Virus record (IMG/VR): IMGVR_UViG_3300038466_000014
Length of the DNA stretch: 64,000 bases
DNA from: a virus
Reading direction: 5' to 3' (one strand)
Shown here: positions 642 through 59,670 of the stretch, one piece after another
Position numbering within the stretch: the stretch's first letter is position 1
Layout of the letters: each line of letters begins with the position of its first letter
Made by a program: the position numbers and the translations under genes
Notes under the pieces: generated by a model
Told to the model about the DNA's origin: nothing
Database searches by the model: none
The model's input: the letters and a program-made list of their open reading frames with translations, nothing else

Positions 642-659
642 TTCTTCAATCCTCCTATC

Positions 660-674
660 ATTTAATATATATAA
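660..674 (-). promoter_or_regulatory. recurrent promoter-like motif A (TTATATATATTAAAT)
   Basis: identical or near-identical copies at 7 intergenic sites, each oriented toward downstream genes. Confidence 0.65.
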
Positions 675-6427: not shown

Positions 6428-6440
6428 TTCTCATATTGAT

Positions 6441-6455
6441 ATTTAATATATATAA
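6441..6455 (-). promoter_or_regulatory. motif A
   Basis: ATTTAATATATATAA on the plus strand, intergenic. Confidence 0.65.
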
Positions 6456-17021: not shown

Positions 17022-17036
17022 TTATATATATTAAAT
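17022..17036 (+). promoter_or_regulatory. motif A followed by a G-U-containing hairpin (17038-17064)
   Basis: exact TTATATATATTAAAT upstream of the lone plus-strand unit. Confidence 0.7.
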
Positions 17037-17107
17037 ATTAGATTATGAATTGTTTATAGTCTAAAGATTCTGTAATCCAATTACATTTTTATTCAAGGAA
17101 GTTTATC

Positions 17108-19616: not shown

Positions 19617-19649
19617 CCATAGTTGTTAAGCCTGATCTTCCACCTTATT

Positions 19650-19663
19650 ATTTAATATATATA
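19650..19663 (-). promoter_or_regulatory. motif A (14/15 match)
   Basis: ATTTAATATATATA on the plus strand, intergenic. Confidence 0.6.
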
Positions 19664-19686: not shown

Positions 19687-20124
19687 TCACAATCTAATGG
19701 CTGTAATATCCGGATCTATATTGTCAATTATATCTGTCACTACATTCCAATCCCCGCCGCCCAGAGCACACCCCATCAGATACGGAATATATATATTAAA
19801 TTCCGGGTAATTTTCATTGCGGTATTCTGTGACATTTAATATGCATTTTCTTACAGCGTCATAATCTGTATACTGTTTATCGGTTCCATATCTAAACTGT
19901 CCGCACAAATTAGCGACTATTAAATCATTATTTATTTTCGAATATATTACTTCTCCCAATTGTAGTTTTCCGTTATCGAACGCGCGTATGTAATCTCTGT
20001 ACGCCAGCGGATATTTCTTACGCAGAGCCAGCGCCAACCCAGCACCCATTGCCCCGAGGCAATTTACCTGATGACAAATAATACCCTTTTCGATTCTTAA
20101 AAGATTACCTTGAATTATTTTCAT
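19687..20124 (-). CDS. macrodomain protein (ADP-ribose binding/hydrolase)
   Basis: GNLL, HQVNC.G.MGAGLA, NL.GQ, IPY.MGCALGGGDW. Confidence 0.92.
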   Translation of the reverse strand: MKIIQGNLLRIEKGIICHQVNCLGAMGAGLALALRKKYPLAYRDYIRAFDNGKLQLGEVIYSKINNDLIVANLCGQFRYGTDKQYTDYDAVRKCILNVTEYRNENYPEFNIYIPYLMGCALGGGDWNVVTDIIDNIDPDITAIRL

Positions 20125-27505: not shown

Positions 27506-29694
27506 TCATTAATCCTTTCTCACGGAGAGGCAGCTTTAGTTTCAATAATCATTTTGTTGAGTTCATCCTTATACTCAACAGATAATGTTTTATCATATTT
27601 TATATATGTTTTAATCATTGATGTTGCCGATATCTTATCGGGAACAAATCCACCTATCAGGACTACTATAATAAGGACAATTATCCACGGTTTTGTTTTT
27701 TCAATCCATATTGATAGCGACAAATCGTTTGCTATGCACCATAATCCGATAACAGACATACCTAAAAAGGAAAGCGTCAGATACGCAACCATAAACGTCT
27801 CAAAGTATGTGATCACGTCGATGTTGCCGCACAAATAAAGCAAAATCACTTCTTTGATGTTTTTGTCTCCCTTTTAATATACTCTGAAAAATTACTTCTA
27901 TAACAGTATGTTTTTAGAAATCCAGCTTTTAATTTTTCGTAACACCCATCACATAAATCTATTTCATAATAATCCGGATCGTGGTCTACTCCGTTATATA
28001 CCCGGTCAAGATCTATCCTCCTTGTAATAGCGGCATTTATACATCCAGGATAATCACACCTGATAACTGTATGTTTCAACCTATTCGGTCCTTTCTCTGA
28101 AAAGTTCGTCCACGCTAATTCCTTTCCATCGTATCAATTTATATGGTTGCTCTTCATAAACAAAAACCGCCATCCTGAATTTTTTATAAAATCGTTTGGA
28201 TATAAACCACCTAAAGTAGTCACCAAAGTTTCTAATGTTATACTTTGTTCTTATATAAAGACCAATTGAATACTCATCGAAATATTCGAATCTATAATCA
28301 ACGTTTAAAAGTTTAAGTAGGGATGTATATCTGTCATATAGTTTCAAAGTCTTTCCAAACGAATAGCGTGTATAATCAAATCTAAGCTCTACTTCATAAT
28401 ATCTGAAATCATCATATTCGCTTATAAAGCTACTATTAAGATTATAAGTAGCGATGAACAAATCCATTGTTTTTATAAATTGTTGTATAACACATTTAAA
28501 ATACGATAAATCTACAACATGATATCCGTTACTGACAAATTTTATATACGACAAATTAGAATCGTAAGACTGCCAATCAATAAGAATACTCTTACAAATA
28601 CGAAGAAATCTTATATCTGGAACAATATTTCCAAACGGATCACAACATAGTTTCGTTTTTGATAAAAACTCATATTTTAAATCGTAATGTTTCATCATAT
28701 CTTCTTCGTTATCATATTCTATTTCATTTAACTCTTCATGTATATCAATAGGACCGAGGTGTTTTATTTTAAACTTTTCAATCTTATCCATTATATCAGT
28801 ATCTGAATCCCGCAACCATTCTTTAAACCACTCGGAGTATAATTCCGGAAGGGTGCATACAGACGTTCTTATCTCTTTCGTTTTCTTATCCATATTTTCA
28901 GTTAAACATCTACCATCTGTATATATCTGTACATTCGCTGTCAATTCAGTGACCGCGTTATTGGTTCCATACTTATAAAGTCCTACCGGTTGAAATGAGA
29001 TATAAAATAAGTCTTTATGACCAAATTCGAATATCTCGTTTCTATGGAGAGGTAAAAGTTCATTTTCCATTTTTTACCTTTGAATAATTTTTTCCTCTGT
29101 GGTGTGGACTGATATGTCGCTCGAATATTTACCTGTTCATACAAAATTCTTTTTCATCTCCAAATTGAATATACCTTATATCATTTGGATCTATTCTATC
29201 ATACATCCGCCATGATCCTCTCGCATATGATAGTTCGTGCTACATCATACGTTTCTCCGGCAATACTCCGATAACAAAGATTGATTTTATATCCTGAATC
29301 TGTTTTAAGGATTTCAGCCATATCAAACACTTCGTCATCGGAATCGCACCTGTCTGTCGCTGGTTGATTTTCCATATATACGACACCTTCCTCTTTAGTA
29401 TTAAATTCCATTAAGGCTTGGTCGGATGCGAGAACCAGAATCCGTGAGTATCCAATCTTCCAACTGTTTGTTTTAATTTTAAATAATCTATCAAACGCCT
29501 CTTCTGGAGTTGATACATCATCCAACTGTGGAATCGTCCATGCTTTTACAGCTCCCACTTTTATAAGATTATCTTTTATCGGTATTTCTTTCAGTACAAG
29601 AACCATGAATACTCCGAGTAATAAAAACAAATTAATGTTTTAAACCACATATAATCATACGTCCATAATGGTGAAGTATGATTAATCTGCTATT

Positions 29695-29709
29695 ATTTAA
29701 TATATATAA
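29695..29709 (-). promoter_or_regulatory. motif A at the strand-switch point, with hairpin 29652-29684 downstream
   Basis: exact match; heads the minus-strand arm. Confidence 0.7.
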
Positions 29710-37845: not shown

Positions 37846-37860
37846 TTATATATATTAAAT
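37846..37860 (+). promoter_or_regulatory. motif A
   Basis: exact match, followed by hairpin 37864-37891. Confidence 0.7.
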
Positions 37861-38156
37861 ATTAATCAAACCCTCTCAATTCGGGTTGATTGTAGTACAA
37901 ACAATATAATATTTTTTGGGAGTCGAGTCTGAAATGGAAATTATTTACAAATTTGGGTGGGGATTTTATGTTGTGAGCAGAAGAGGGACTTCCAAAACGA
38001 TATCCGCAGTACCGATCGCCAAACGCGCCACTGGTAGGGCGATTAGATTCTCCAGAACAGGTATCGGATTTGTATGGGGTGTTCAAACGTAATCGAATGT
38101 TCGGAAGGCCGGGAGATTGCTTCCGGCCTAACAAATTTACTAATCATGGTGTCATT
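37861..38156 (+). ncRNA. candidate structured leader or small RNA upstream of the clamp loader
   Basis: nested stems with G-U pairs at 38002-38069, terminal hairpin at 38106-38129, locally GC-rich. Confidence 0.45.
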
Positions 38157-47581: not shown

Positions 47582-49555
47582 ATGGCTGAAAAAAACGAAT
47601 CTATTTATAAAGATATGTTAGGCAAATTAAAAACAAATGTATTTAAAGTATCATCGGATAAAACAATAGATAAGATAGATATGGCAATTGAGAAGATTTC
47701 TGGTTCGATTATTGATAAAAATACCGTGAATTATGCGGAAACGATGCGGACAAAATTTTCAGATACTCTAAGCCAACATTTAAAAGACAATCCTTTATCA
47801 AAAGAATTTCTACACTCGTTTGTCAATGTGGACAGACATGTTAGATACTCAAACGCGGAGGAGATGGTTGATTGTATTCCGTATTGTAATGCGGCTCTTA
47901 AAGTGTTATCCTCCGAAATTGTTGCTCCAGATGATATAACGCGAGAAACCCTCAATATAATACAAGAAGAGAATCATTCCGATGTATCTAAAACTGAAGT
48001 AACTAATATAAAAAGGATTCTGCGTATTCTTGGTATAGAGGATCATTTAACAGATTTAATATCCGAGACAATAAAATTTGGAGATCAGTTTGTTGAAGTG
48101 TGTGATTACACATCTGAAGATATTCCTATCTCTCAAATAGCACTAAACGAATCGTATTCTTCTTTTATGAACGAAGATGTGGAATTGGAATATTCAGTTC
48201 TAAAAGAGGGTTCGTTGGATAACATTAGAAATGCAAATGACGCATTTTCAGATAGGAAGATTAATATTCGTCCGGTTGTGGTAGAATCTTCAGGAAAAGA
48301 TAAGAAAATAGATATAAACAATATACGGTTAATATTTCATGATCCGAGATACGTTATAAAAATACAATCGCAAAGATATAGAATGTGTCTTGGTTATTTA
48401 ATACTTCCCCGCTCTTCTGTGCTCGGCAGTTCAGGATTTGGAGATCCGTCCCATTCTTATTTAAAATCATTGGTCTATGGGGCCACTAATTATAAAGATA
48501 TGCTCGGAATAGACAGATTATATTCACAAGTTGTAGGTATTATAAAGAAACATCTCAATAACGATGAAATATCAGTAGATAAAAAAGAAGTTATGGATAT
48601 GATGAAGAGATGTATTAGAGAATTCGATACTGAAAAACTTAGCGAGTTTAAAGTCCGATATGTACCTTCGAGCAGGATGGAACATTTTATGATGTCCAGC
48701 CGTAGATTTTTTCCCTATGGAGAAGGACTGTTTTATAAGTCGACATTTACAGCTAAACAATATATTGCTATGCAGACGGCGAGAACTATAAAGACTATTA
48801 CGGATTCCACAGACACAAGAATTTTTTACGTGGAAAACGGAACTCCAAGAGATGTTCGAAATACCATAGAAGAACTCAAAGAGTTCAGAACGAAGAAGAA
48901 AGTAACCCTGGATTCGATGGGTTCTTTAAGCTCTATACCAGGAATGATAACTTCTTATGAGGATTTATATGTCCCTCAGATTAATGGTAAGCGATTTGTT
49001 GAATTTGATACACTGCCACCAGCCATTCAGCTTAAAGATGCGTCGGAAGAGCTTAAAGGTCTTAGAGATACAATTGTATCTTCATTGGGAGTTCCTCCAA
49101 GTTATATCAACATCGAAGAGAATTTGAGCAACAAGGCGGCCCTGTCGTTTGAATCTATTTTATTCGCAAGAACAGTAATTAACTATCAGCAGCGTATGGG
49201 AAAATATATTCGATCCCTTATCGATAAAATATATAAGATGATATATGATGAGCAGATGTCTTTGGGCACTGATATTAAATTTTATCCTCCTAAAATGCTG
49301 CAAATAGAAAGGGACGCCGAATATATCAGAAACGTAGCTGATATTATAGGTTCTCTTGAGAATATCGGTGTGGATAGAAATTACCTCAAAGAAAAATATT
49401 TACCTATAGATTTGAGACAGCATGAAGAAAAAGAGACGTTTACAAAATTAGATAAGAAACTCGAAAATCGTCCGGATAGTCTGAACACATATACTCCGGC
49501 TGGTGGTGGATTTGGCGGAGATACTTTTACGGGAGAACCTCCACAAAGTCTATAG
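47582..49555 (+). CDS. portal protein (T4 gp20-like)
   Basis: AL...S.EIV, PYGEGL, RIFYV..G, ED.YVP, DTLP, LGVPPSY; next to the prohead protease. Confidence 0.85.
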   Translation: MAEKNESIYKDMLGKLKTNVFKVSSDKTIDKIDMAIEKISGSIIDKNTVNYAETMRTKFSDTLSQHLKDNPLSKEFLHSFVNVDRHVRYSNAEEMVDCIPYCNAALKVLSSEIVAPDDITRETLNIIQEENHSDVSKTEVTNIKRILRILGIEDHLTDLISETIKFGDQFVEVCDYTSEDIPISQIALNESYSSFMNEDVELEYSVLKEGSLDNIRNANDAFSDRKINIRPVVVESSGKDKKIDINNIRLIFHDPRYVIKIQSQRYRMCLGYLILPRSSVLGSSGFGDPSHSYLKSLVYGATNYKDMLGIDRLYSQVVGIIKKHLNNDEISVDKKEVMDMMKRCIREFDTEKLSEFKVRYVPSSRMEHFMMSSRRFFPYGEGLFYKSTFTAKQYIAMQTARTIKTITDSTDTRIFYVENGTPRDVRNTIEELKEFRTKKKVTLDSMGSLSSIPGMITSYEDLYVPQINGKRFVEFDTLPPAIQLKDASEELKGLRDTIVSSLGVPPSYINIEENLSNKAALSFESILFARTVINYQQRMGKYIRSLIDKIYKMIYDEQMSLGTDIKFYPPKMLQIERDAEYIRNVADIIGSLENIGVDRNYLKEKYLPIDLRQHEEKETFTKLDKKLENRPDSLNTYTPAGGGFGGDTFTGEPPQSL

Positions 49556-49586
49556 ATTATATTATAAAGGAAAGGATAAATTCCAT

Positions 49587-50147
49587 ATGAAACAATCCAT
49601 ATACTTGAAAAAAGGAAAATTTTTAGTGGAGCAGGAACCTCCACCACAAATTGTTCCGAATATCAAACAAAAAACACAAGCTACCAATCAACTAAGTACC
49701 AATCAACCCCAAACACAATATGTTCAGCCATATCCTCCACCTCCAGAAGTACCGGCACAAACAGATATTTATTCACCACAAGCGGAATATATACCGTATG
49801 ATCCAAATGCACAACCTCCGGAGGAGATTTTAGATCCTCTTGCCGCATCAAATCATAGTATGGTTAGAAGGAAGATTGGTACTGTACAAGAGTTGAAAAA
49901 CATTTATTCGAGATTGCTTACATTGGATGACTTGGTAGATAATTATTCACACGAGACTTTTTTGGAAATCAAGAAAACACTAACGGATGCGCTGGATTTA
50001 TTTCATGTCATAGTGATAAATTATGAAAATTTAACGGATGTGGTAGATAACATTATATTGGATTATTACGACTTTTTACTAAAGATATCCGAAAGCACTA
50101 TGGATGCCGTTGACCAGATACATAGAGAATTAAATAAAAAGAAATAG
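49587..50147 (+). CDS. hypothetical P/Q-rich protein, possibly head-related
   Basis: lies between portal and protease. Confidence 0.6.
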   Translation: MKQSIYLKKGKFLVEQEPPPQIVPNIKQKTQATNQLSTNQPQTQYVQPYPPPPEVPAQTDIYSPQAEYIPYDPNAQPPEEILDPLAASNHSMVRRKIGTVQELKNIYSRLLTLDDLVDNYSHETFLEIKKTLTDALDLFHVIVINYENLTDVVDNIILDYYDFLLKISESTMDAVDQIHRELNKKK

Positions 50148-50180: not shown

Positions 50181-50936
50181 ATGTATATAATGAGTGAGTC
50201 TCCTGTATTAGGCACGCCTGTAATACAGAAAAAGACAAAGGATAAAATTAGGTGTGAAGCTGTTTTACAGACTGCTGGTGATGTGAATAGAAATAAACGG
50301 AGATATTCTAAAACACTTATAGAAGATGGTATTTCAAAGGTTCGTGATAGACTAAAAGAAGGAAGTTTTTTAGGGGAACTTGATCACCCTATATCTGACA
50401 ATCCTGTAAGGCAGATGACGGTATTATATAAAGAAGCTTCTCATAGAATTTTAGAGATGGGATGGGATGGGAATAAGCTTATAGGAGTAGTCGAATCTCT
50501 AAAAACCCCAAACGGTCAGATATTTAAAAATCTCGCGGAGGAAGGTATACCCGTAGGGTTCTCCTTCAGAGGTATCGGAGATCTAAAATCGAGAATAGAG
50601 AATGGAGTAAAGATTAACGAGGTGGTAGGACCGCTACACGTTACTTCGTGGGATGCGGTATCGGTTCCTTCCCATATGGAAGCGAAGATGATTCGGATTA
50701 CAGAAGGTGACATACAGGCGATTCAGGAATCTGCATGTATGATGAGAAATAAAACATCCAGATCGAAAATCGCACAATTACAAGAAGCATATAATCTAAT
50801 ACACGATTCTGACGGTATTGTCGAATGCGGCGGTATGATTTGTACCAATGAAGGAATATGCTACCTTCCAAACGATTTCGATAAGCTCGTTGAAAATCAT
50901 ATTATAGGATTGATAAAAAAATTTAATAAAAAATAA
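50181..50936 (+). CDS. prohead core protease (T4 gp21-like)
   Basis: N.NKR.Y, LGELDHP, SH.I, TPNG, G.S.RG.G, WD.V..PS. Confidence 0.95.
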   Translation: MYIMSESPVLGTPVIQKKTKDKIRCEAVLQTAGDVNRNKRRYSKTLIEDGISKVRDRLKEGSFLGELDHPISDNPVRQMTVLYKEASHRILEMGWDGNKLIGVVESLKTPNGQIFKNLAEEGIPVGFSFRGIGDLKSRIENGVKINEVVGPLHVTSWDAVSVPSHMEAKMIRITEGDIQAIQESACMMRNKTSRSKIAQLQEAYNLIHDSDGIVECGGMICTNEGICYLPNDFDKLVENHIIGLIKKFNKK

Positions 50937-50947
50937 GTTTTTGGTTT

Positions 50948-50988
50948 AATTCCCCCCATAGCAATACAGCCTATGGGGGGAATTTTTT
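50948..50988. terminator. bidirectional terminator between the core block and the paralogue array
   Basis: 14-bp stem AATTCCCCCCATAG/CTATGGGGGGAATT with T/A runs on both sides. Confidence 0.9.
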
Positions 50989-53900
50989 AGTTAATTGTAG
51001 TATATACATATGGCCCGATAACACACGACGAAAAGTTAGGTATTGCATCGATAACTATACACTTATTCTTTATCATCAATATTTTCGGGGGGACTAAAAC
51101 TCCACTTCTAATATTAAATAAATTACATGGATACGTATCGAATACGTTTATCCCTATAATTTTACATGCTTTGTAGGTTTTGGTCTACTAACATATTTAT
51201 TATATATTAGATCTTGACATTTGGTAATATTCTTAAACGATATATATTTTTTCTTCGATAGTAAAGTAAATATTTTCATTTTGTAAAATTGGCATTATTA
51301 TATTTACCCAACAACCAAAACCCGTACCCTTCCCCTCCATAGACTCAAATTCAAGATATTTGTAATACCAGCCCCTAAAAGACGGAGTAATAAACATATT
51401 GGATTGTATACGAAACGTGGTACTTGTATAATCAGTAAAATATTTTTAGATTCTTAATAAGACAATAAATAAATATTTGATTTTAAATCGGTGTGTGGTT
51501 ATATATTATATTTTTTATGTTGGAATTTTTCTTGAACTCTGAATATGTCTCTTTATACAATGTATGAAAATTTTTCATTTTTTAAGCCATTTCTTACTAT
51601 ATGTTATTCTTTCGTTATTAACTTCGGTATTAAAAATATCCTGTTGGATAATCACCTATTAAATATAATGCAAGGTAAATATTTGTTATTAGCAATTCGA
51701 AGGTTTTCGGTTCTATAGTATTTATTCGCGGTATATGTATAAAAATAGGAATCGTAAATATGTTATGATCAATAATAAATAATGTAGTTATGAATAGTGG
51801 TTGTGGTAATTCTATAAAGTGCTCATTTAGTGTTAAAAATCCTGTTCGTTTATCATATAAGATCCTCCTCCGATCAGTATTATCTTTAAATATTTTATAT
51901 TGTTTTTTATTTAACTTAGACTATAATTTCATTTGAGTATTCGACTTTGTAATAGAAATTTTTTAGGATATGAACAATGGATATCAAATGAGTTATTTTG
52001 CCATATAACCACATTAAATAATTTTTTATCTCTTGAATTGTCTGGATATAATTTTTTTAATATTAATATATTATATTTGAATTGAAACTGATCGCTTAAA
52101 CATCCGATTAGTAATTCATTACCATTGGTATCTATATACAAATATTTAAACTTATGATAAATAATAGTGTCTATACGAGACCCGTCGATAAATTCCAGAT
52201 ATTCTACATGACTGATAGGGGTGTGTTTTTTCATGGTATTTGTTTATTATAGTCGATAAGGAATTTCATATCAATCCTGTCAGCGATAAGAAACCAATTT
52301 TTATATATAAAATAACAAATATATACTTTCTGTTTAAATACAAAAGTGTTTTGAATTTTAGTTAGTATAACCATTCCATTTTTACATCCGAAACAAATAT
52401 CAGATAAATATCCTAAATCGTGATAACGCGATTCTATTTTATATCTTCTATGTGTAATCATAGCTTTAACATTGAATGTATCTTTAACCTCTATATACGC
52501 AGTAGTAGACAGTGGATAGTATATTTTCACGCTATCTTATGTTTCATATTCATTTGTATTTTATAGCTATACCACATAAAAAACCACGCCATAATATAAT
52601 CTCAATATAACTCTTAAAATTGCATATATGGGCCACCCGAGTTGGTTTTAACCCGCCGTTATCAAAATAAAAAAGATCGGACGGACTTCTAAATCCATCT
52701 TTATTAAAAGAGGGATTATATATAACAGTTTTAGACATAAAGTCTAACCTTGATTGAATTTTGAATTTATCGTATGCCTCAGAAGATAAAGAACTGTACT
52801 TTTTCATTCTTTTTAGATTATGGTGTAGAAAGGATTTAGGAAATTGTAATCCGGTTTTACAATGACCGCTATCTATCTTACTACAATGAAATTCCAGTAA
52901 GAAGAAATATGGACCACTGGTATATCTAATGTTAACCTTTCTAAATAAAAATATATTATTGAATATTAAATGATTTGTACATCGTAAAAATAAAACAAAT
53001 CGGAGTGTCTTATGAAATAGATCGTTGTTTGAATGAGGGTTTGAACAAATAGATGAATGTATCGTATTCTGCGGGCGATAACCCTGTATACTTATTCATA
53101 TTGTTTTATTTCCGGGATTTGATATTAAATACTCAACTGGAAAAAATCCTATGATATGAGATGTTGTTACTATAGGAAAATTTATATCATATATTACAAT
53201 TAGAAATTTTACCCATGTAGAACGGAGCGCGCATTCCTTCTTAATCCGATATGATATATATAATCCATGTTTCGATGTAAACATTCTGTCACATTTAAAT
53301 CTCCATTCATATGGAACTTTAAAATTTGTTGCCCAATTAAAATATATTTTTTGTTTAATATCAACAATCTCTTTAAAATGGTTATATTGATGGGATGATA
53401 TGATGTAGTGTATTTTTATTTATTGGTGATTGTTTATATTAGGTTTTGTTGTTCAATTATAAATTTCTGATCTACGTATATAACTATGTTTCCAGTATAG
53501 TGATACCACAACCTAATTTCTAAGTAACGTTTTAAATAATAAGGATAATCTTTTTCTTTTCTTGGTACATGCCAAGCGTAATTAAACCCTATTACTTTTT
53601 TAAGTTTGAGTATGTGGTTACTAAACGCAAATAAATCCGCAGGACAACGATATCCATGTTTGTTAAATTCCATACACGGATATTAATGTTGTAAAACTTT
53701 GGAATGGTTTATTTGCGTATAGTTTTTGTAAATTACGAAAATAATCATAATCGTCTGAAGTAAGAGGTGTATGATTCTTCATAACCTGTTCTGAAATACC
53801 ATGGAGTTAAAAAGAATCTATCATAATACCATATGGATAACGTCTTCAAATCGACTACAGTAATGCGTATCGAATTTATACTGATTAAATTTATACTGGT

Positions 53901-56900
53901 TATTTTTTTTATGGTCCATAAATCATTGTTCGATTCAAATATTATATGATCGTGCGGATAGATGATCGAGAACATTTTACGCGCAACGCAGGATACGTAA
54001 GCAAATTATATACCATTTTCATTTTTTGTGTTTTATATTAAAAACGGTGCATAATATTTATAATTTGTATGTCTCCAGACAACACTTTCTATGGAACCAG
54101 ATCCTTTAATTATTTTAAAATATTGCATCATGTAGAATGTTAATCTTTTACCTTTTTTAATCTTGATATCAAATTGTGGTTGTGTATAAAATCTATGTAA
54201 TATAATCGGGATATAATCGGAATCCAATATATAATCTATACGGTACGATCTTACTTTTATATTTTTTACTGGATGTTCATTGAAAACTTCTTTGTGTATA
54301 TCTTTAATTAAGTTTGAAGTTGTAAATAGTAACATCCACAAACTCGTTTGTATTATTAGCGAAACTAAAAACCAAATACTTCATGATTCCATCGGAGGAT
54401 AGAGTTCTTTTTTGATAACTACCCATCCTATTAAGTATAAATAGATTGTTTTTGATTATATAATAAGATGATTTTTTAAAATCTAAATAAGTATCTTTCA
54501 CTATTCCTTTGGAATAAACACAGTATGATATAAAAATGAACTATTTAAATATTTTATAATCCGGGTATGTCTAAATCTATCATGTCCCGATGAGTCGACC
54601 CCAATCGTTTTCAATTCACCTTCCTTATAATTATTAGAATAGGTTGGGATACCGAAATACTATTAATTTATAAGATCCTTTTATGGGTAATGATTGCGTA
54701 ACAATACGCATAGGTCTTGGTTTAGGCGGTTTTAAAATGGTTAAGACAGGATATGTATTTATAAATACATTATTTTTCAATACGAACGTACCAAAATATA
54801 TATTTGCTATATCTTGTAAAAATGAATGTAGTTTGAAAAGTCTGTAACTCTGGAGATAATTGTATATGTTTTTTTATTATTGTCTCATAATTTTTAGAGG
54901 GAACTCATACATTATCCCATTGGTATATAATGACGACCTATAGTTATTATATATATGACACCATTTATAGGTGTTTTGTATACTGGTTATATTACACATC
55001 GTAAAGATATTATGGTGTAATTCAAATATATCGAATACGAATCGATCGTAACCTTCTAATCCACATATAAACTTTGGTATTTCGGAATGCGCGAGAAATA
55101 CAAGATAATTCTTTAAAGGCAGGATGGTGTATTTTTTCATTTAAGTCTGTGTATAGGATAACAATGTAAAATTTTTGGGATGGGTAAACAACCAACATCT
55201 ATATAGGAATCAACTGAAATATATATAGCTTCGCCAGTCGTATACACGTTAAAAGTGTCGTATATAAACATGTTATGATTTAATTTAAAATATTTTATGT
55301 TGGTAAGTCCGCGAGCTATATGATACATATCCGAATAAACTAAAAATTTTTTATAGGAAAATTCAACCATGCCTATATAACGTTTCATATACGTACCGTA
55401 CAAGGATATAGGAATTTATTAGAAAATATAAAATATATTAAACCGTATGGTTTTCTTCCAGAGTTTGGGACATTTTGTGTTGGATCATCCAACAATCGGG
55501 CGGTGAATCTATTATGGATATATTCTTTACCGTTACTACTTCACGCTTCAATATAAATACTTTATGTATGGTTGTACGAGATCCTAAACCATATATTAAT
55601 CTATAAATATCTGCTGATTAACGAAAATTGAAGTAATCCCTTCTCGATAAAACGGTATACTTTTTCATTCCTCCTATCCTTTCTTATTGTTTAGCACTAC
55701 AAATCAGATTACATAATTTCGTTGATGTTACAACAGAGGACATATCTATTGCATATGTTATGTCTAAAGTTAAAGTATTTTTAGAAAATCTAATATCTGC
55801 TGATTTTGTTCTGAGTGAATCATAGGTTAAAGACATGGTTATAGTATTCATATTTAAATGATAATTTGTATATAGAACATGTTTTACGCATAATATATCG
55901 TTGTGTATATGAACCAGATCCGTAGACGCTGGTGGTATTAACGTTGAATAAATACTTTCGGAACCTTTTATGTGAAATAGATAACCTCGTTTATGATCAA
56001 AATACCAAGAACTTACCGGGTCTAATAGTCTCTTTTTCACTTACACACTCAGCTTTAAGAAAATAGATAATCTTGGAGGGTTCCTATTGATCTGGGTGTA
56101 GTCTATATACTTATATATATTCTTTTTGACAATATTATAACGATATGATATTTCTGAGCACGATAATCCTTTAGGGTCCATATAATGTGATACCCCATAT
56201 AACAAATATTTTCTTATTACGAAGGGTAAATGTATTTGAATCCGTACTGTATATATCCGGATAAAGATACACACCATTCTGAAAATGTCCCTGTCTGCGG
56301 AAATCCGGATATTCATTATAAACATTCATAATATATTTCTTTTTTTCGGGAACTAATATAGTACAAAGTGAATGGTTTTTCATTACGATACCTCATTGTA
56401 TTTAAATACGAACGTCGTTATTCCCAACCGGTTACTAACGAATGGATGATGAAAATTTAATTTTAGAGTGTGATAGGTTTTCCATACATAGTCCCGTTCC
56501 GCATTTATATACTTTATATTTGGACATATAATTAAACCGTGTTTTATAAAAAGTATATTTTGTAAATATGTATATTGGTTGTTAATCAGAATCATATGAT
56601 TGTGGGTATCTGTCTCCATCCATGATTGAACTACGGAAAACCATAAAAATTTATTTATTTTATCGGAAATAATCATATCTGGATTGCTGTTTTCTTCATA
56701 ATAGTATCCTCCAAACCGAAATGTTTTCATTCCTTTCCTATTATTTTAAACTCAAATTTTATTGTGTAAACATGACCCATATAAATTCTTGGTTTAAAAC
56801 ATATACTAACATCAAAATATTCTTTTGGAAATACAATGTCTTTTATATTATGTATATGAATTATAGATGGAAAAATTATTAATCCTTGTTTTATCAGAAA

Positions 56901-58717
56901 CATCTGTTTTAGATTTATGACACTCGATTTATGATATAAATGGTATCCGAGATCAGGACAAAAAGTATACATTTCGGCTATCCAATCGGATTTTTTCCTT
57001 ACTCTCTTGATATTGTCTATAGTATGAAAATCCATAGACAAAAAGTATTTTTTCATATATTTTCCTTATTTTAATGTTGTTGTATGGAGGTGTCGAATGA
57101 AAATGAAAAATATAATCCCTTTGTTCGATCAAATCCTTTTTGCTGGATACTGATATCCCTAATCGAAAGGGTTGATTTATTAATATATAACCAAATATCA
57201 GCGCTGTATGAATGCATATTTGCAAGTTTTTTGCGCTCAACAAATAATTGATGATGTAATCTATCCCAGGCGGATTTCCAGGGAACGTATGGATGTTGAT
57301 ATGGAGTATTTATTTTCATTGTGATTTCTGTATGTTACATTGTAGTCGTGTAGTGAATACCCGTCTGTTATAAAACTTTATACGTTTATGATACTTATAT
57401 CAAATTCGAGTTCTTGTCCAACCTTCGGATTATTATAATCATAGAAAATTATTCGGATATCTATTGTGGGAAAGTGTGGATCGTGACTATATTTCCGCGA
57501 GATAAAATATATTTTTGGGGATTGAATCATATTATGATTTATAATACTTATAGCTTCTATATTCTTATGGGTGCCCCGATCAAAATATACAAAACGTTCG
57601 ATATCTGAAAACAAAGACGCATACATCGCATACATCGGTTCACGATTTTTAATGAAAGTCTTTCTTATATAATCCCACGATAAATCCCAATCTAAATTAC
57701 TTCTTGTTGGCATACAGGAGTTCATTGCGTTTTCCAGAACGGATACGATAAGTGTTTAAAAATGTTTAATTTGTCGGGACGAATCAAAGGATATTTAAGC
57801 ATATCGTTTGATACGGGTGGATAAATATCGTATAAAGTGCATATAAACCCATTATTGTATAATACCGGTTTTAGTACGGTTGGATAATTTTCATAAGGAG
57901 AATCTCTGTATATTAAATAATTTCCAACGAAAGCGTATATATTTGGAAATATAACCATACCCGACTTATTACGACATAATTTGTAGAAAGCGCTGTAATA
58001 ACCATATCCCCCTTAGATCAGTAAATACTTGGGATTCGACATACATAATTTTTAATGCTATTGAACTAACCTCTTGAAAACTAAACAACGGATTAGATGT
58101 TACTGGTTCTCCGAATTTCATTAATGAACCATTGGTTTATTAATAACTTAGTCATCTCATCATATGCGTATAATTTAAATTGGTAATATGGTTTATTTAA
58201 TACAATGGACAAAACCAACAAAGGTTTGGGGTCGAGTCTTATATTATAAATGTATTGTATATTCTATATATTTTTAAACCGTTGTTGTACATGGCCCTAT
58301 GAAATTTAATTATTTTTTTACGATCGTTTTATTTTAAATTGTATTCTCTAATAGACAAATAATTTTTCATTTTATCCTTCCGGATATAGGCAATAAGATA
58401 TTCCTAAAATCCGAAATCTTACTGAATATGCTTTTAGTATATAACATGATAAAATAGTATGATAATAAATTACATCCTACTGAGTAGGGAACATACTATC
58501 GAGGAGGGGAGTTTTAGAATATGATTTCATTTTATCCTTCCTCTCTGGACGGAGAAAAGTCAAATCGAATGTCGAAATCCCTAAAGGTATAATCGGATAT
58601 TCCGTTATATCCAACATTATGTTGTATATGTCCTGGAATTATATACTGTATGTTGAACAATCTACAAATAAAATAGTTTGTACTTTTACTTTGTATATTA
58701 TAATTCGCGGTTTTCAT
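50989..58717 (-). other. tandem array of about 25 small diverged paralogous genes and pseudogenes
   Basis: shared N-terminus MKx[YHF]xx[LI]SxxxYxxF, internal DLF.[FI]..[GN].[LI] motif, frequent ATGA coupling, about 250-400 bp period. Confidence 0.8.
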
Positions 58718-58760
58718 AAATCCTCCTTTAAACTTTATAAAAATACAGTTTGAGATTATG

Positions 58761-58810
58761 AACCCCATAGATATATACCGGCGTTGCTCATGGTATATAT
58801 CTATGGGGTT
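58761..58810 (-). repeat. perfect 19-bp inverted repeat (5' leader hairpin of the array)
   Basis: AACCCCATAGATATATACC (58761-58779)/GGTATATATCTATGGGGTT (58792-58810). Confidence 0.9.
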
Positions 58811-58822
58811 ACATTTATTAAT

Positions 58823-58837
58823 ATTTAATATATATAA
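58823..58837 (-). promoter_or_regulatory. motif A heading the paralogue array
   Basis: exact match, 12 nt upstream of the hairpin. Confidence 0.7.
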
Positions 58838-58893: not shown

Positions 58894-59670
58894 TTAACAG
58901 TTGAAATACAAACTCTTCCTGAAAAAATTCAAAGATTCTACTAATTTGGGATTTGTCAATATGACAGATCCTATACCAAATGTTTTACACCCCATATCGA
59001 ATAGTTTATGGATGTCCCCCCGGCGCACCCAGGACACTCCCGCGATTTCCGGAATATCCGGTTTTCCCTGATAATTCTCTATAAATCCCCAATTTAATTC
59101 CTGTGCTTTCTTTCCAGACCACGATCCTATATATCTACCAGGAACTGAATTCAGATGAATTCTTTTAACAGGCAGTCCCTTGATTCTTTCAACGTCGAAA
59201 TCGTACCTGACTTTTAAATAGATGGTTAAATCGGTTAGATTATCCATTTTGGAAAACAATTTCTCCAAATCAATATCATCATAATCTGTATTAGAATTAG
59301 GACATGATAGATTGATCTCCAACGCACGTATATTATAATATTTGGATAAAGTATGAATCATCGAAGACAATTCAGGAAACGATCCGGATATCGAGCAAAT
59401 ATCTATTTGTTTATAATATTTACGTTCTACATAATCCGCATATTTCTTCAACCACATACCCATTCCATCGTTATGCAAGCCATATTTGTTCCATACGGAA
59501 TCGCCGAGAGGAAGAATAGTAAATGGTAGTCCTTTATTTTTATAAAGTGTTATCGTTTTTGATACAACTGGAAAATTGTTTGGAAACTTGTAGAACTTAT
59601 GCCAGAAATATCCTTCTCCGTAAAATCCCATAGTTCCAGACTGGTAAAAGAAGTCAATCATTTTCACCAT
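58894..59670 (-). CDS. pyrD: dihydroorotate dehydrogenase-like protein
   Basis: SGTMG, SKTIT, N..GL.N.G, SISG, EINLSCPN, LK, NS, SG. Confidence 0.85.
   Translation of the reverse strand: MVKMIDFFYQSGTMGFYGEGYFWHKFYKFPNNFPVVSKTITLYKNKGLPFTILPLGDSVWNKYGLHNDGMGMWLKKYADYVERKYYKQIDICSISGSFPELSSMIHTLSKYYNIRALEINLSCPNSNTDYDDIDLEKLFSKMDNLTDLTIYLKVRYDFDVERIKGLPVKRIHLNSVPGRYIGSWSGKKAQELNWGFIENYQGKPDIPEIAGVSWVRRGDIHKLFDMGCKTFGIGSVILTNPKLVESLNFFRKSLYFNC

What the first reader, a model, noticed from the sequence alone, without database searches (positions are those of the whole stretch)
50989..58837. A 7.8-kb operon-like array of about 25 hyper-diverged small paralogues, roughly half of them dead
Seen: between a motif-A promoter with a 19-bp hairpin (58761-58837) and a bidirectional terminator (50948-50988), minus-strand units recur every 250-400 bp. 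Starts are at about 51279, 51578, 51932, 52234, 52530, 52807, 53099, 53419, 53782, 54022, 54501, 54876, 55140, 55388, 55668, 56040, 56383, 56730, 57056, 57319, 57725, 57958-58121, 58370, 58530 and 58717. Many N-termini align without gaps (MKKHTPISHVEYLEF, MKKYSSLSSEAYDKF, MNKYTGLSPAEYDTF, MKNHTPLTSDDYDYF, MKKYTILPLKNYLVF, MKKYTVLSRRDYFNF, MKIFTLLSKKKYISF), with Y12 and F15 conserved. There is a shared core (SDLFYFDNGGL, ADLFAFSNHIL, LFIKHGLIICPNI, CNLFNIRSGVLVPPKI) and often a P.KFL tail. Broken copies include TAG at codon 4 (51630-51932), TAA at codon 17 (55668), ATG changed to ATA (53419), and frameshifts (51279, 53099, 53782, 54876). The ORF track shows only fragments of the array. Inference: a birth-and-death gene accordion, perhaps a variable repertoire of anti-defence or host-interaction proteins. 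I do not recognise the family.
Basis: partly seen in the sequence, partly recalled or inferred. Interest (0 to 1): 0.85.

Follow-up and report, generated by a model that had tools for sequence, protein, structure and literature searches.

The report
Old, eroding orphan gene array in phage
A large uncultured groundwater phage carries a 7.8-kb single-promoter block of about 26 head-to-tail small genes from a family found nowhere else; the copies are ancient duplicates and about half are now broken, so it is a real but functionally unexplained example of the paralogue arrays seen in other jumbo phages.

Summary
The observation largely holds. Window 50990-58717 (minus strand) holds about 26 units of 160-406 nt between one promoter-like 15-mer with a leader hairpin and a terminator hairpin. 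The strand carries 19 open frames of at least 80 codons, against 1 expected from shuffles and 2 on the other strand. A 15-residue N-terminal motif (M-K-K-x-T-x-L-S-x-x-x-Y-x-x-F) occurs 11-14 times, only on this strand of this region, and is conserved as protein (synonymous codons vary). Paralogy is statistically firm for about 15-17 units, collectively supported for several more, and unproven for about 5.

Ten units are full-length, two are short but uninterrupted, and 14 are broken (nonsense codons, ATG changed to ATA, frameshifts in both directions).

The family is an orphan. Profile searches of 1.84 billion representatives and of 5.8 billion clusters return only this contig's own proteins. 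Pfam, PHROGs, PDB and fold searches give nothing.

The closest relatives have no array at this position, which is a synteny breakpoint.

The "accordion" reading is only partly supported. Even the closest pairs have saturated synonymous sites, so there are no recent births, only young lesions.

Function is unknown; I favour accessory host-interaction proteins. This scan has noted comparable arrays in other jumbo phages, and I checked one (121Q gp319-341) here.

The parts
58822..58836 (-). Motif A, promoter-like 15-mer TATATATATTAAATA at the head of the array
   Evidence: Six exact copies in the window, where chance gives a mean of 4.7 matches even with 2 mismatches allowed. One copy here and none inside the array. 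Every copy is followed by a stem-loop and then a gene.
58761..58810 (-). 19-bp leader hairpin between motif A and the first unit
   Evidence: -31.8 kcal/mol, z = -7.1, 0 of 200 shuffles fold as well; sequence.
58535..58717 (-). Unit 1: 61 aa, uninterrupted but short, strong SD (AAAGGAGGA); core-like LFNIQYIIPGHI
   Evidence: No significant pairwise link.
58375..58530 (-). Unit 2: SD GGAAGGA; in-frame TAG at codon 18 (58477-58479); same frame open to the next unit's start
58122..58370 (-). Unit 3: SD GGAAGGA; shortened N-motif (MKNYLSIREY); TAA at codon 14, rest decayed
   Evidence: Logan contig of run X1 identical over 58228-58411.
57725..58121 (-). Unit 4: frameshifted (shift within 57972-58012); core NKSGMVIFPNI in the second frame
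   Evidence: X1 contig identical over 57903-58138.
57381..57725 (-). Unit 5: intact, 115 aa; ATGA overlap with the upstream frame
57074..57319 (-). Unit 6: intact, 82 aa
   Evidence: (E = 0.002 to unit 5).
56730..57056 (-). Unit 7: intact, 109 aa, SD AAGGAAAA
   Evidence: (E = 5e-5 to unit 8).
56386..56730 (-). Unit 8: intact, 115 aa, SD GGAAAGGA, ATGA overlap
56041..56383 (-). Unit 9: 70-aa ORF (56174-56383) with core FQNGVYLYPDI, followed by about 130 nt of decayed tail
55687..56040 (-). Unit 10: 118 aa, GTG start; family membership not shown individually
55441..55668 (-). Unit 11: excellent SD (AAGGATAGGAGGA), N-motif, in-frame TAA at codon 17 (55618-55620), then 59 open codons
   Evidence: Z = 11 to unit 13.
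55140..55388 (-). Unit 12: intact, 83 aa, N-motif MKRYIGMVEFSYKKF
   Evidence: One nonsynonymous variant at 55202 in X1.
54880..55140 (-). Unit 13: intact, 87 aa, N-motif, ATGA overlap
54637..54877 (-). Unit 14: ATA in place of ATG (54875-54877), N-motif IKKHIQLS, then a frameshift to the frame carrying core LKNNVFINTYP
   Evidence: X1 contig identical over 54825-55030.
54307..54614 (-). Unit 15: TTG start with SD AAGGAAGG; double stop and frameshift at about 54501-54504; core IIKNNLFILNR in the second frame
54036..54341 (-). Unit 16: uncertain. A 102-115-codon open frame without N-motif; a core-like relic (FIHNHNLISRLKKV) lies in a different, stop-ridden frame (54143-54235)
53748..54022 (-). 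Unit 17: frameshifted; weak N-terminus; core-like HDHIIFESNND in the second frame
   Evidence: No individual support.
53437..53782 (-). Unit 18: N-motif, then a single frameshift (within 53666-53682) into an 82-codon frame
   Evidence: E = 2.6e-6 to unit 21; Z = 13.
53099..53419 (-). Unit 19: ATA in place of ATG; otherwise 107 open codons with N-motif and core
52810..53099 (-). Unit 20: N-motif, then two frameshifts (core SDLFYF in a second frame, tail PKSFL in a third)
52553..52807 (-). Unit 21: intact, 85 aa
52234..52530 (-). Unit 22: intact, 99 aa, GTG start
51932..52234 (-). Unit 23: intact, 101 aa, ATGA overlaps on both sides
51633..51932 (-). Unit 24: single TAG at codon 4 (51921-51923), where other members have Tyr, His or Phe. 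L7, Y12 and F15 are kept and 96 open codons follow
   Evidence: (E = 5e-4 to profile A1).
51281..51578 (-). Unit 25: N-motif, stop after 31 codons, remainder in another frame
   Evidence: (E = 5e-5).
50990..51279 (-). Unit 26: N-motif, single frameshift (within 51157-51184), core LFNIRSGVLVPPKI
50948..50988 (.). Terminator hairpin shared with the convergent head-gene block. A U-run follows it only on the plus strand

Best explanation
This is a lineage-specific (orphan) family of small, mostly basic, soluble proteins of 80-118 aa. It was amplified long ago into a tandem array of about 26 copies in an accessory region of a distant T4-like jumbo phage.

Shown:
- The array lies exactly where synteny with the nearest relatives breaks, just behind the prohead protease gene and convergent to it.
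- It has one phage-specific promoter-like motif plus a leader hairpin at its head, none inside, and a hairpin terminator at its end.
- Many units start at ATGA overlaps with the preceding stop.
- The copies share an N-terminal peptide, a central core block and often a P-x-K-F/I-L tail.
- Synonymous sites are saturated even between the closest copies, while conserved residues persist.
- About 12 copies are uninterrupted and 14 carry one to three lesions.

Inferred:
- The block is one polycistronic transcript, translated partly by coupling.
- The copies were kept under protein-level selection for a long time and the array is now eroding. Selection has relaxed or shifted, and there has been no recent duplication.
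- The products are accessory host-interaction or counter-defence proteins made with the replication-type gene class. I put this last step at roughly 40%. It rests only on analogy: small size, tandem multiplicity, rapid divergence and accessory location.
For: - Strand-specific coding constraint: 19 open segments of at least 80 codons and 11 of at least 100 on the minus strand. Dinucleotide shuffles give 0.98 and 0.23; the plus strand has 2 and 0.
- N-motif is specific to this strand and region.
- The motif is conserved as protein: Leu7 uses five codons, Ser8 uses TCN and AGT, Tyr12 and Phe15 use both of their codons.
- HMM iteration recruits only array segments until one false positive at E = 0.009.
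- Pairwise Z scores, leave-out core test, and the two halves compared by hhalign.
- Orphan status: only self hits in 1.84e9 representatives and in 5.8e9 clusters, each a singleton on one 180-kb contig.
- Synteny from DnaB through the portal to the protease is collinear with relative L001 and stops at the protease's end. Relatives have structural genes there instead.
- One motif A copy at the head and a leader hairpin after every motif A copy; hairpin energies.
- Saturated synonymous sites: 62 of 114 same codon, 59.0 expected.
- Lesions seen directly.
- Three lesion sites are identical in an independent assembly of run X1.
- Intact members: pI 8.6-9.7 in 10 of 12, no 19-residue hydrophobic window above 1.32.
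- A comparable array exists in isolated phage 121Q.
Against: - No transcript, protein or phenotype data exist.
- Codon usage of the array ORFs is only intermediate between real genes and non-coding frames.
- About five units cannot be tied to the family individually.
- Structure models are poor: pLDDT 58 and 48.5.
- The fall of similarity with distance is not significant (p = 0.19).
- The minus-strand terminator lacks a U-run.
- X1 may be the sample the contig was assembled from, so agreement at the lesions is not fully independent.
- The function has no direct support.
Confidence: 0.55

Rival explanations
1. The units are capsid-packaged, injected 'internal proteins' like T4 IPI/IPII/IPIII. 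On this reading the shared N-terminal 15 residues are a capsid targeting sequence removed by the neighbouring gp21-type prohead protease, and the variable bodies are injected counter-defence proteins.
For: - The phage has a T4-type portal and prohead protease, and the array abuts the protease gene.
- A conserved N-terminal peptide sits on otherwise very diverged small basic proteins.
- T-even internal proteins are described as highly diverse defence proteins that share only a CTS of 10-19 residues (PMC3012670, PMC9026906).
Against: - T4-type proteases cut after Glu, and processing of the T4 CTS depends on residues 8 and 10 (PMC9026906). Here no position of the motif has a conserved Glu; an acidic residue occurs at 10 or 11 in only about half of the units.
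- Similarity is not limited to the N-terminus: a core block and a tail motif are shared too.
- The upstream third of the array lacks the motif.
- The array is on the opposite strand from the head genes.
- Its promoter motif is shared with replication and nucleotide-metabolism units such as the clamp loader.
- No other head protein in the window carries the motif.
Confidence: 0.12
2. The whole block is a non-functional relic. An ancient amplification has lost all function and is drifting towards AT-rich junk, and the remaining open frames survive only by chance or by recency.
For: - 14 of 26 units are broken.
- GC is 0.287, against 0.338 for the first 50 kb of the window.
- The codon-usage score is only intermediate.
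- No homologues exist anywhere.
- Relatives do without the array.
Against: - Eleven frames of at least 100 codons, where 0.23 are expected in DNA this AT-rich.
- Conserved residues persist although synonymous sites are saturated, which needs long purifying selection.
- ATGA start/stop overlaps and strong SD sites are kept.
- By general knowledge, headful-packaged phage genomes are expected to lose useless DNA quickly (compare the compensatory deletions in PMC9391042).
Confidence: 0.12
3. The 'dead' copies are artefacts or are decoded normally. Either assembly or sequencing errors created the frameshifts and stops, or the phage reads them through with a suppressor tRNA or programmed frameshifting.
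For: - Two breaks are single TAG codons followed by long open frames.
- Earlier notes of this scan say the phage carries many tRNA genes outside this window.
- Several broken units keep excellent SD sites.
Against: - Lesions are of every type: TAG, TAA, ATG to ATA, and shifts in both directions. No single mechanism fits.
- No stop reassignment restores the array, and the phage's long ORFs end with TAA, TGA and TAG (31, 12 and 11).
- Long genes elsewhere in the window are intact.
- An independent assembly of run X1 is identical across three lesion sites.
- There is no tRNA in the window.
Confidence: 0.06

Closest known systems
Tandem arrays of small orphan paralogues in jumbo myoviruses, e.g. 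Escherichia phage 121Q gp319-gp341 (Asteriusvirus)
   Same: A long same-strand run of abutting or overlapping ORFs of under 120 aa, of unknown function, in an accessory region of a very large myovirus. GC is somewhat below the surroundings. I checked 121Q here: 22 of 23 ORFs are linked at BLAST E < 1e-3.
   Different: No sequence relationship: hhalign probability 0.06% and no PHROG hit. The 121Q copies share 23-72% identity (median 34%) and 106 of 253 pairs are significant; here only 2 of 300 pairs are. In the 121Q record all 23 are annotated as uninterrupted genes; here about half are broken.
Polymorphic internal-protein loci of T-even phages with a capsid targeting sequence (PMC3012670; PMC9026906; Repoila et al. 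1994 as cited there)
   Same: A T4-type head module. Several small basic proteins share a short N-terminal peptide while the rest diverges strongly. Their presumed role is in the arms race with host defences.
   Different: There is no conserved Glu cleavage site. Similarity extends beyond the N-terminus. The array has about 26 tandem copies rather than a few. It lies on the strand opposite the head genes and has a promoter type shared with replication genes. Packaging is untested.
   Same: Tandem multiplication of a gene for a small protein (TifA is 85 aa) in a T4-type genome, limited by capsid capacity.
   Different: Those amplifications are recent, near-identical repeats joined at microhomologies, and they are unstable. 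Here nucleotide identity is 45-60% and synonymous sites are saturated, so the array is ancient and fixed. No target is known.
Hyperplastic regions of T4-like phages with PeSL elements (PMC4122927; PMC2839356)
   Same: A variable block of ORFan genes wedged between conserved core modules and absent from relatives, with a promoter-plus-stem-loop module at its edge.
   Different: In a PeSL the stem-loop lies upstream of a sigma-70-like early promoter, and PeSLs recur between ORFs. Here one non-sigma-70 motif is followed by the hairpin, none lies inside the array, and sigma-70-like sites are not enriched (59 found, 69 expected). HPR genes are usually unrelated to each other; these are paralogues.

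Membership tests
T4-type internal proteins with capsid targeting sequence | Conserved N-terminal propeptide of 10-19 residues | tested here: met
   A 15-residue motif in 12 units, plus 2 degraded copies, specific to this strand and region.
T4-type internal proteins with capsid targeting sequence | Propeptide ends at a prohead-protease site (cleavage C-terminal to Glu; T4 CTS residues 8 and 10 needed for processing) | tested here: not met
   No motif position has a conserved Glu. E or D occurs at 10 or 11 in about half of the units and is absent from several intact ones. Rule taken from PMC9026906.
T4-type internal proteins with capsid targeting sequence | Mature parts unrelated to each other; only the CTS is shared | tested here: not met
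   A shared core block and tail motif run across the units.
T4-type internal proteins with capsid targeting sequence | Presence in the virion and injection with the DNA | not testable with these tools
   Uncultured phage; no proteomics.
   hhalign probability 0.06%, the same as the reversed control. No PHROG match below E = 0.02 for any member.
Tandem orphan paralogue array of jumbo phages (organisational class) | Many same-strand, abutting small ORFs that are demonstrably paralogous, in an accessory region | tested here: met
   Comparator verified. About 5 of the 26 units are not individually demonstrable.
Gene accordion / segmental amplification | Near-identical tandem repeats of recent origin | tested here: not met
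   No DNA repeats beyond short N-terminal words. Nucleotide identity 45-60% and synonymous sites at the chance level.
Gene accordion / segmental amplification | Copy number varies between closely related genomes | not testable with these tools
   No close relative exists in any collection searched. X1 gives only fragments.
T4-like hyperplastic region with PeSLs | Variable block between conserved core modules, absent or different in relatives | tested here: met
   Synteny with L001 and L002 ends at the protease, and relatives have structural genes there.
T4-like hyperplastic region with PeSLs | Repeated stem-loop-then-sigma-70-promoter elements between the ORFs | tested here: not met
   One motif A copy, followed rather than preceded by the hairpin, and none internal. 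Sigma-70-like sites are not enriched.
Stop-codon recoding or programmed frameshifting | One codon type or one shift direction explains the interruptions | tested here: not met

The most novel reading that the evidence does not exclude
The broken copies are not waste. They could be a silent cassette reservoir: recombination or gene conversion between the roughly 14 interrupted and 12 expressed copies would generate new variants of a host-interaction protein. That would be a phage counterpart of the pseudogene-fed antigenic-variation systems of bacteria and trypanosomes. It would explain why so many copies with only one or two lesions are retained in a size-limited genome.
Probability: 0.05. Interest if true: 0.8.

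Novelty: new member of a known kind. Interest (0 to 1): 0.4.

Why it matters
Phage genomes are usually described as compact and nearly free of pseudogenes. Here 4% of a 180-kb phage genome is one orphan gene family in which ancient duplicates were kept long enough to saturate silent sites, and half are now decaying. That makes it a natural case for studying how multigene families are born, held and lost in viruses. It also offers about ten intact small proteins as candidates for host-takeover or counter-defence screens. Without a host, a transcript or a sister genome it remains descriptive, and similar arrays are already visible in isolated jumbo phages.

Tried and rejected
- Megablast of the array and of the head block against 50,697 phage records: no match.
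- IMG/VR scans with both flanking proteins: no relatives.
- No whole genome is held for the window, and L001's record is not held, so I could not search the rest of either genome.
- A first coding score was biased by stop codons. The corrected score is only intermediate and not decisive.
- Stop-codon reassignment was rejected. No tRNA in the window.
- DNA repeat search: only short words at the N-termini.
- Pfam, PHROGs, PDB sequence search and the ESM Atlas: nothing usable.
- Two AlphaFold runs gave pLDDT 58 and 48.5. Foldseek of the better model against BFVD and PDB gave no match below E = 0.6 and TM below 0.25. A model this weak gives meaningless matches, so these say nothing.
- Rfam: no hit in the region.
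- Sequencing runs: no RNA holder listed. X1 gave only short, low-depth fragments that match the window almost exactly. X2 and X3 gave only short pieces, mostly under 90% alike, or 18-33-base exact matches inside unrelated contigs. Most lesions are therefore not independently covered, and no strain comparison was possible.
- Profile A1 against five loci of relatives: nothing.
- Decline of similarity with distance: the trend is present but not significant.
- Homology to the 121Q array family: rejected.
- Literature search for natural diverged arrays in phages found only general statements.

Full report
CONTEXT. The window comes from a 180-kb contig of a large uncultured groundwater phage (earlier notes; runs). 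Its head and replication genes are distantly T4-like: a gp20-type portal at 47582-49555, a gp21-type prohead protease at 50181-50936, DnaB and a clamp loader. The plus-strand head block ends at a hairpin at 50948-50988. From the other side comes a minus-strand block that includes a DHODH-like gene (58894-59670) and an RNA-ligase-like gene. The finding lies between them.

IS THE ARRAY REAL? Yes.
- The region has no long ORF, but its minus strand is tiled by open segments. There are 19 of at least 80 codons and 11 of at least 100. Dinucleotide-preserving shuffles give 0.98 and 0.23, and the plus strand has 2 and 0. In open segments of at least 50 codons, the minus strand holds 2,613 aa and the plus strand 957 aa.
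- GC is 0.287, against 0.338 for the first 50 kb of the window.
Elsewhere in the six frames of 64 kb it appears only as three matches interrupted by stops. Two further units carry the motif behind a TAG or an ATA, and one carries a shortened copy.
- The motif is conserved as a peptide, not as DNA. Leu7 is written with five codons, Ser8 with TCN and AGT, and Tyr12 and Phe15 with both of their codons.
- I count 26 units of 160-406 nt. Nearly all begin with ATGA. Many overlap the preceding stop, and several have strong Shine-Dalgarno sites.

HOW MANY UNITS ARE PARALOGUES?
- An HMM built from five intact members ranks array segments as its six best non-seed hits before noise begins.
- Iteration converges on 14 segments, about 13 units, with one false positive at E = 0.009 that marks the noise floor.
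- Composition-corrected local alignment gives a mean Z of 0.94 with 11% of pairs above 3. The best pairs reach Z = 13 and 11.
- The upstream units (56383-58121) lack the N-motif. They are chained by collinear similarities (E = 5e-5, 0.002, 0.039) around a core of the type x-H/N-G-h-h-x-P-x-I. A strict form of this core occurs five times, only in the array.
- The two halves of the array align at this core with hhalign score 16.7 (P = 0.03). The reversed control scores 8.0 and 30 column-shuffled controls reach at most 9.2.
- A core HMM trained on 12 robust members places 10 untrained array segments among its 24 best other hits, where 5% is expected, but each scores only 5-7 bits.
- My reading: about 15-17 units are firmly one family, several more probably are, and units 58717, 56040, 54341 and 54022 are unproven.

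STATE OF THE COPIES.
- Ten are full-length (82-118 aa): 57725, 57319, 57056, 56730, 56040, 55388, 55140, 52807, 52530 and 52234.
- Two are uninterrupted but short: 58717 and 56383.
- Fourteen are broken. The lesions are TAG at codon 4 (51932) and codon 18 (58530), TAA at codon 17 (55668) and codon 14 (58370), ATA in place of ATG (53419, 54877), and frameshifts in both directions (51279, 51578, 53099 twice, 53782, 54022, 54614, 54877, 58121).
- No single stop reassignment repairs the array, and the phage's long ORFs end with all three stop codons.
- Short contigs that Logan assembled from run X1 are identical to the window across three lesion sites. That run may be the source sample.
- About eight of the broken units carry a single lesion and otherwise keep 59-107 open codons.

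AGE. The closest pairs share 28-53% amino-acid identity and 45-60% nucleotide identity over their local alignments. At identical residues they use the same codon 62 of 114 times, with 59.0 expected from codon usage alone. No DNA-level repeats exist beyond short words. All duplications are therefore old, and the conserved residues have been held by selection on the protein. The lesions are much younger than the duplications. This is not an accordion caught in expansion. It is an old family that is now losing members.

REGULATION.
- The exact 15-mer TATATATATTAAATA occurs six times in the window, where chance gives a mean of 4.7 matches even with two mismatches allowed. One copy is at 58822-58836 on the minus strand and none lies inside the array.
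- Each copy is followed within about 5-15 nt by a stem-loop and then a gene, among them the clamp-loader unit.
- At the array the stem-loop has 19 bp and folds at -31.8 kcal/mol.
- Sigma-70-like sites are not enriched, and earlier notes say the phage has its own RNA polymerase.
- A single transcription unit is the simplest reading, but it is inferred.

UNIQUENESS AND SYNTENY.
- Profile A1 against 1.84 billion representatives returns nine proteins, all the window's own.
- The word-index search of 5.8 billion clusters returns four, again its own, each a singleton on one contig.
- The nearest relatives by protease (62-66% identity) carry structural genes directly after the protease.
- The 335-kb relative is collinear with the window from DnaB to the protease and not beyond.
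- Small-gene runs beside the DHODH-like gene of more distant phages do not match the family.

FUNCTION. Nothing in Pfam, PHROGs, PDB, the Atlas or the fold libraries helps, and the structure models are weak. Only the core block reaches a pLDDT of about 75, as a short helix plus a beta-hairpin in both models. The intact proteins are basic and lack hydrophobic segments.

The most specific alternative is the T4 internal-protein model. It fits the T4-type head genes and the shared N-terminal peptide. It fails on the Glu cleavage rule, on similarity that extends through the body of the proteins, and on strand and promoter class.

I therefore favour soluble accessory proteins that act on the host. 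I mark this as inference.

COMPARISON. Tandem arrays of small orphan paralogues are present in isolated jumbo phages. In 121Q, gp319-gp341 form such an array, with 22 of 23 ORFs linked at E < 1e-3. Earlier notes of this scan describe others. The present family is unrelated to the 121Q family, is far more diverged (2 of 300 pairs significant, against 106 of 253), and is far more decayed. Experimental amplifications of tifA in T4 show how such arrays can start, but they are young and unstable.

I class this as a new member of a known kind. It is of moderate interest because of its age, its orphan status and its unusually high load of pseudogenes.

Noticed in passing
window 659-673(-), 6440-6454(-), 17023-17037(+), 19649-19663(-), 19788-19802(+), 29694-29708(-), 37847-37861(+), 58822-58836(-): Motif A (TATATATATTAAATA) is a recurring start-of-unit module. 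Each copy is followed within about 5-15 nt by a stem-loop (20 bp at 6440) and then a gene. It precedes replication and nucleotide-metabolism units as well as the array. It contains TTAAATA, one base off the T4 late-promoter core TATAAATA (the T4 consensus is from my own knowledge).
   Followed up: partly
window 54036-54380: A 115-codon open frame without the family's N-motif overlies a stop-ridden frame that still carries a core-like relic (FIHNHNLISRLKKV, 54143-54235). This is either chance or a new frame overprinted on a dead copy.
   Followed up: no
window 55202: The only sequence difference in the X1 contigs is T>A on the plus strand. It falls in the first position of codon 63 (Ile) of intact unit 55388, so it is nonsynonymous. 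Depth is 4.8, so it may be an error.
   Followed up: no
L001:6983-9302 compared with window 49503-50147: Between portal and protease the 335-kb relative has eight small genes (58-193 aa). The window has a single 214-aa gene there. This is a second plastic spot inside the head module.
   Followed up: no
L003 and L004:10717-11241; L005:7434-7757: Phages that carry a relative of the DHODH-like gene encode a translation initiation factor IF3-like protein (PF05198/PF00707) directly downstream. Another encodes a small RF-1-domain protein (PF00472) upstream.
   Followed up: no
L007:17737-22782 (Escherichia phage 121Q gp319-gp341): The N-termini of this unrelated array family (for example MRKLTEKEYQ, MIILTPEEYKKRF) resemble the present N-motif in pattern (T5, an aromatic, then F), although the profiles show no homology. 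This may be a common helix-capping start of small phage proteins.
   Followed up: partly
window 28584-28748(+): A 55-aa open segment antisense to the gene at 28081-29070 is drawn into the family HMM at E = 0.009 and then self-reinforces. It is a worked example of the false-positive level for these AT-rich profiles.
   Followed up: yes
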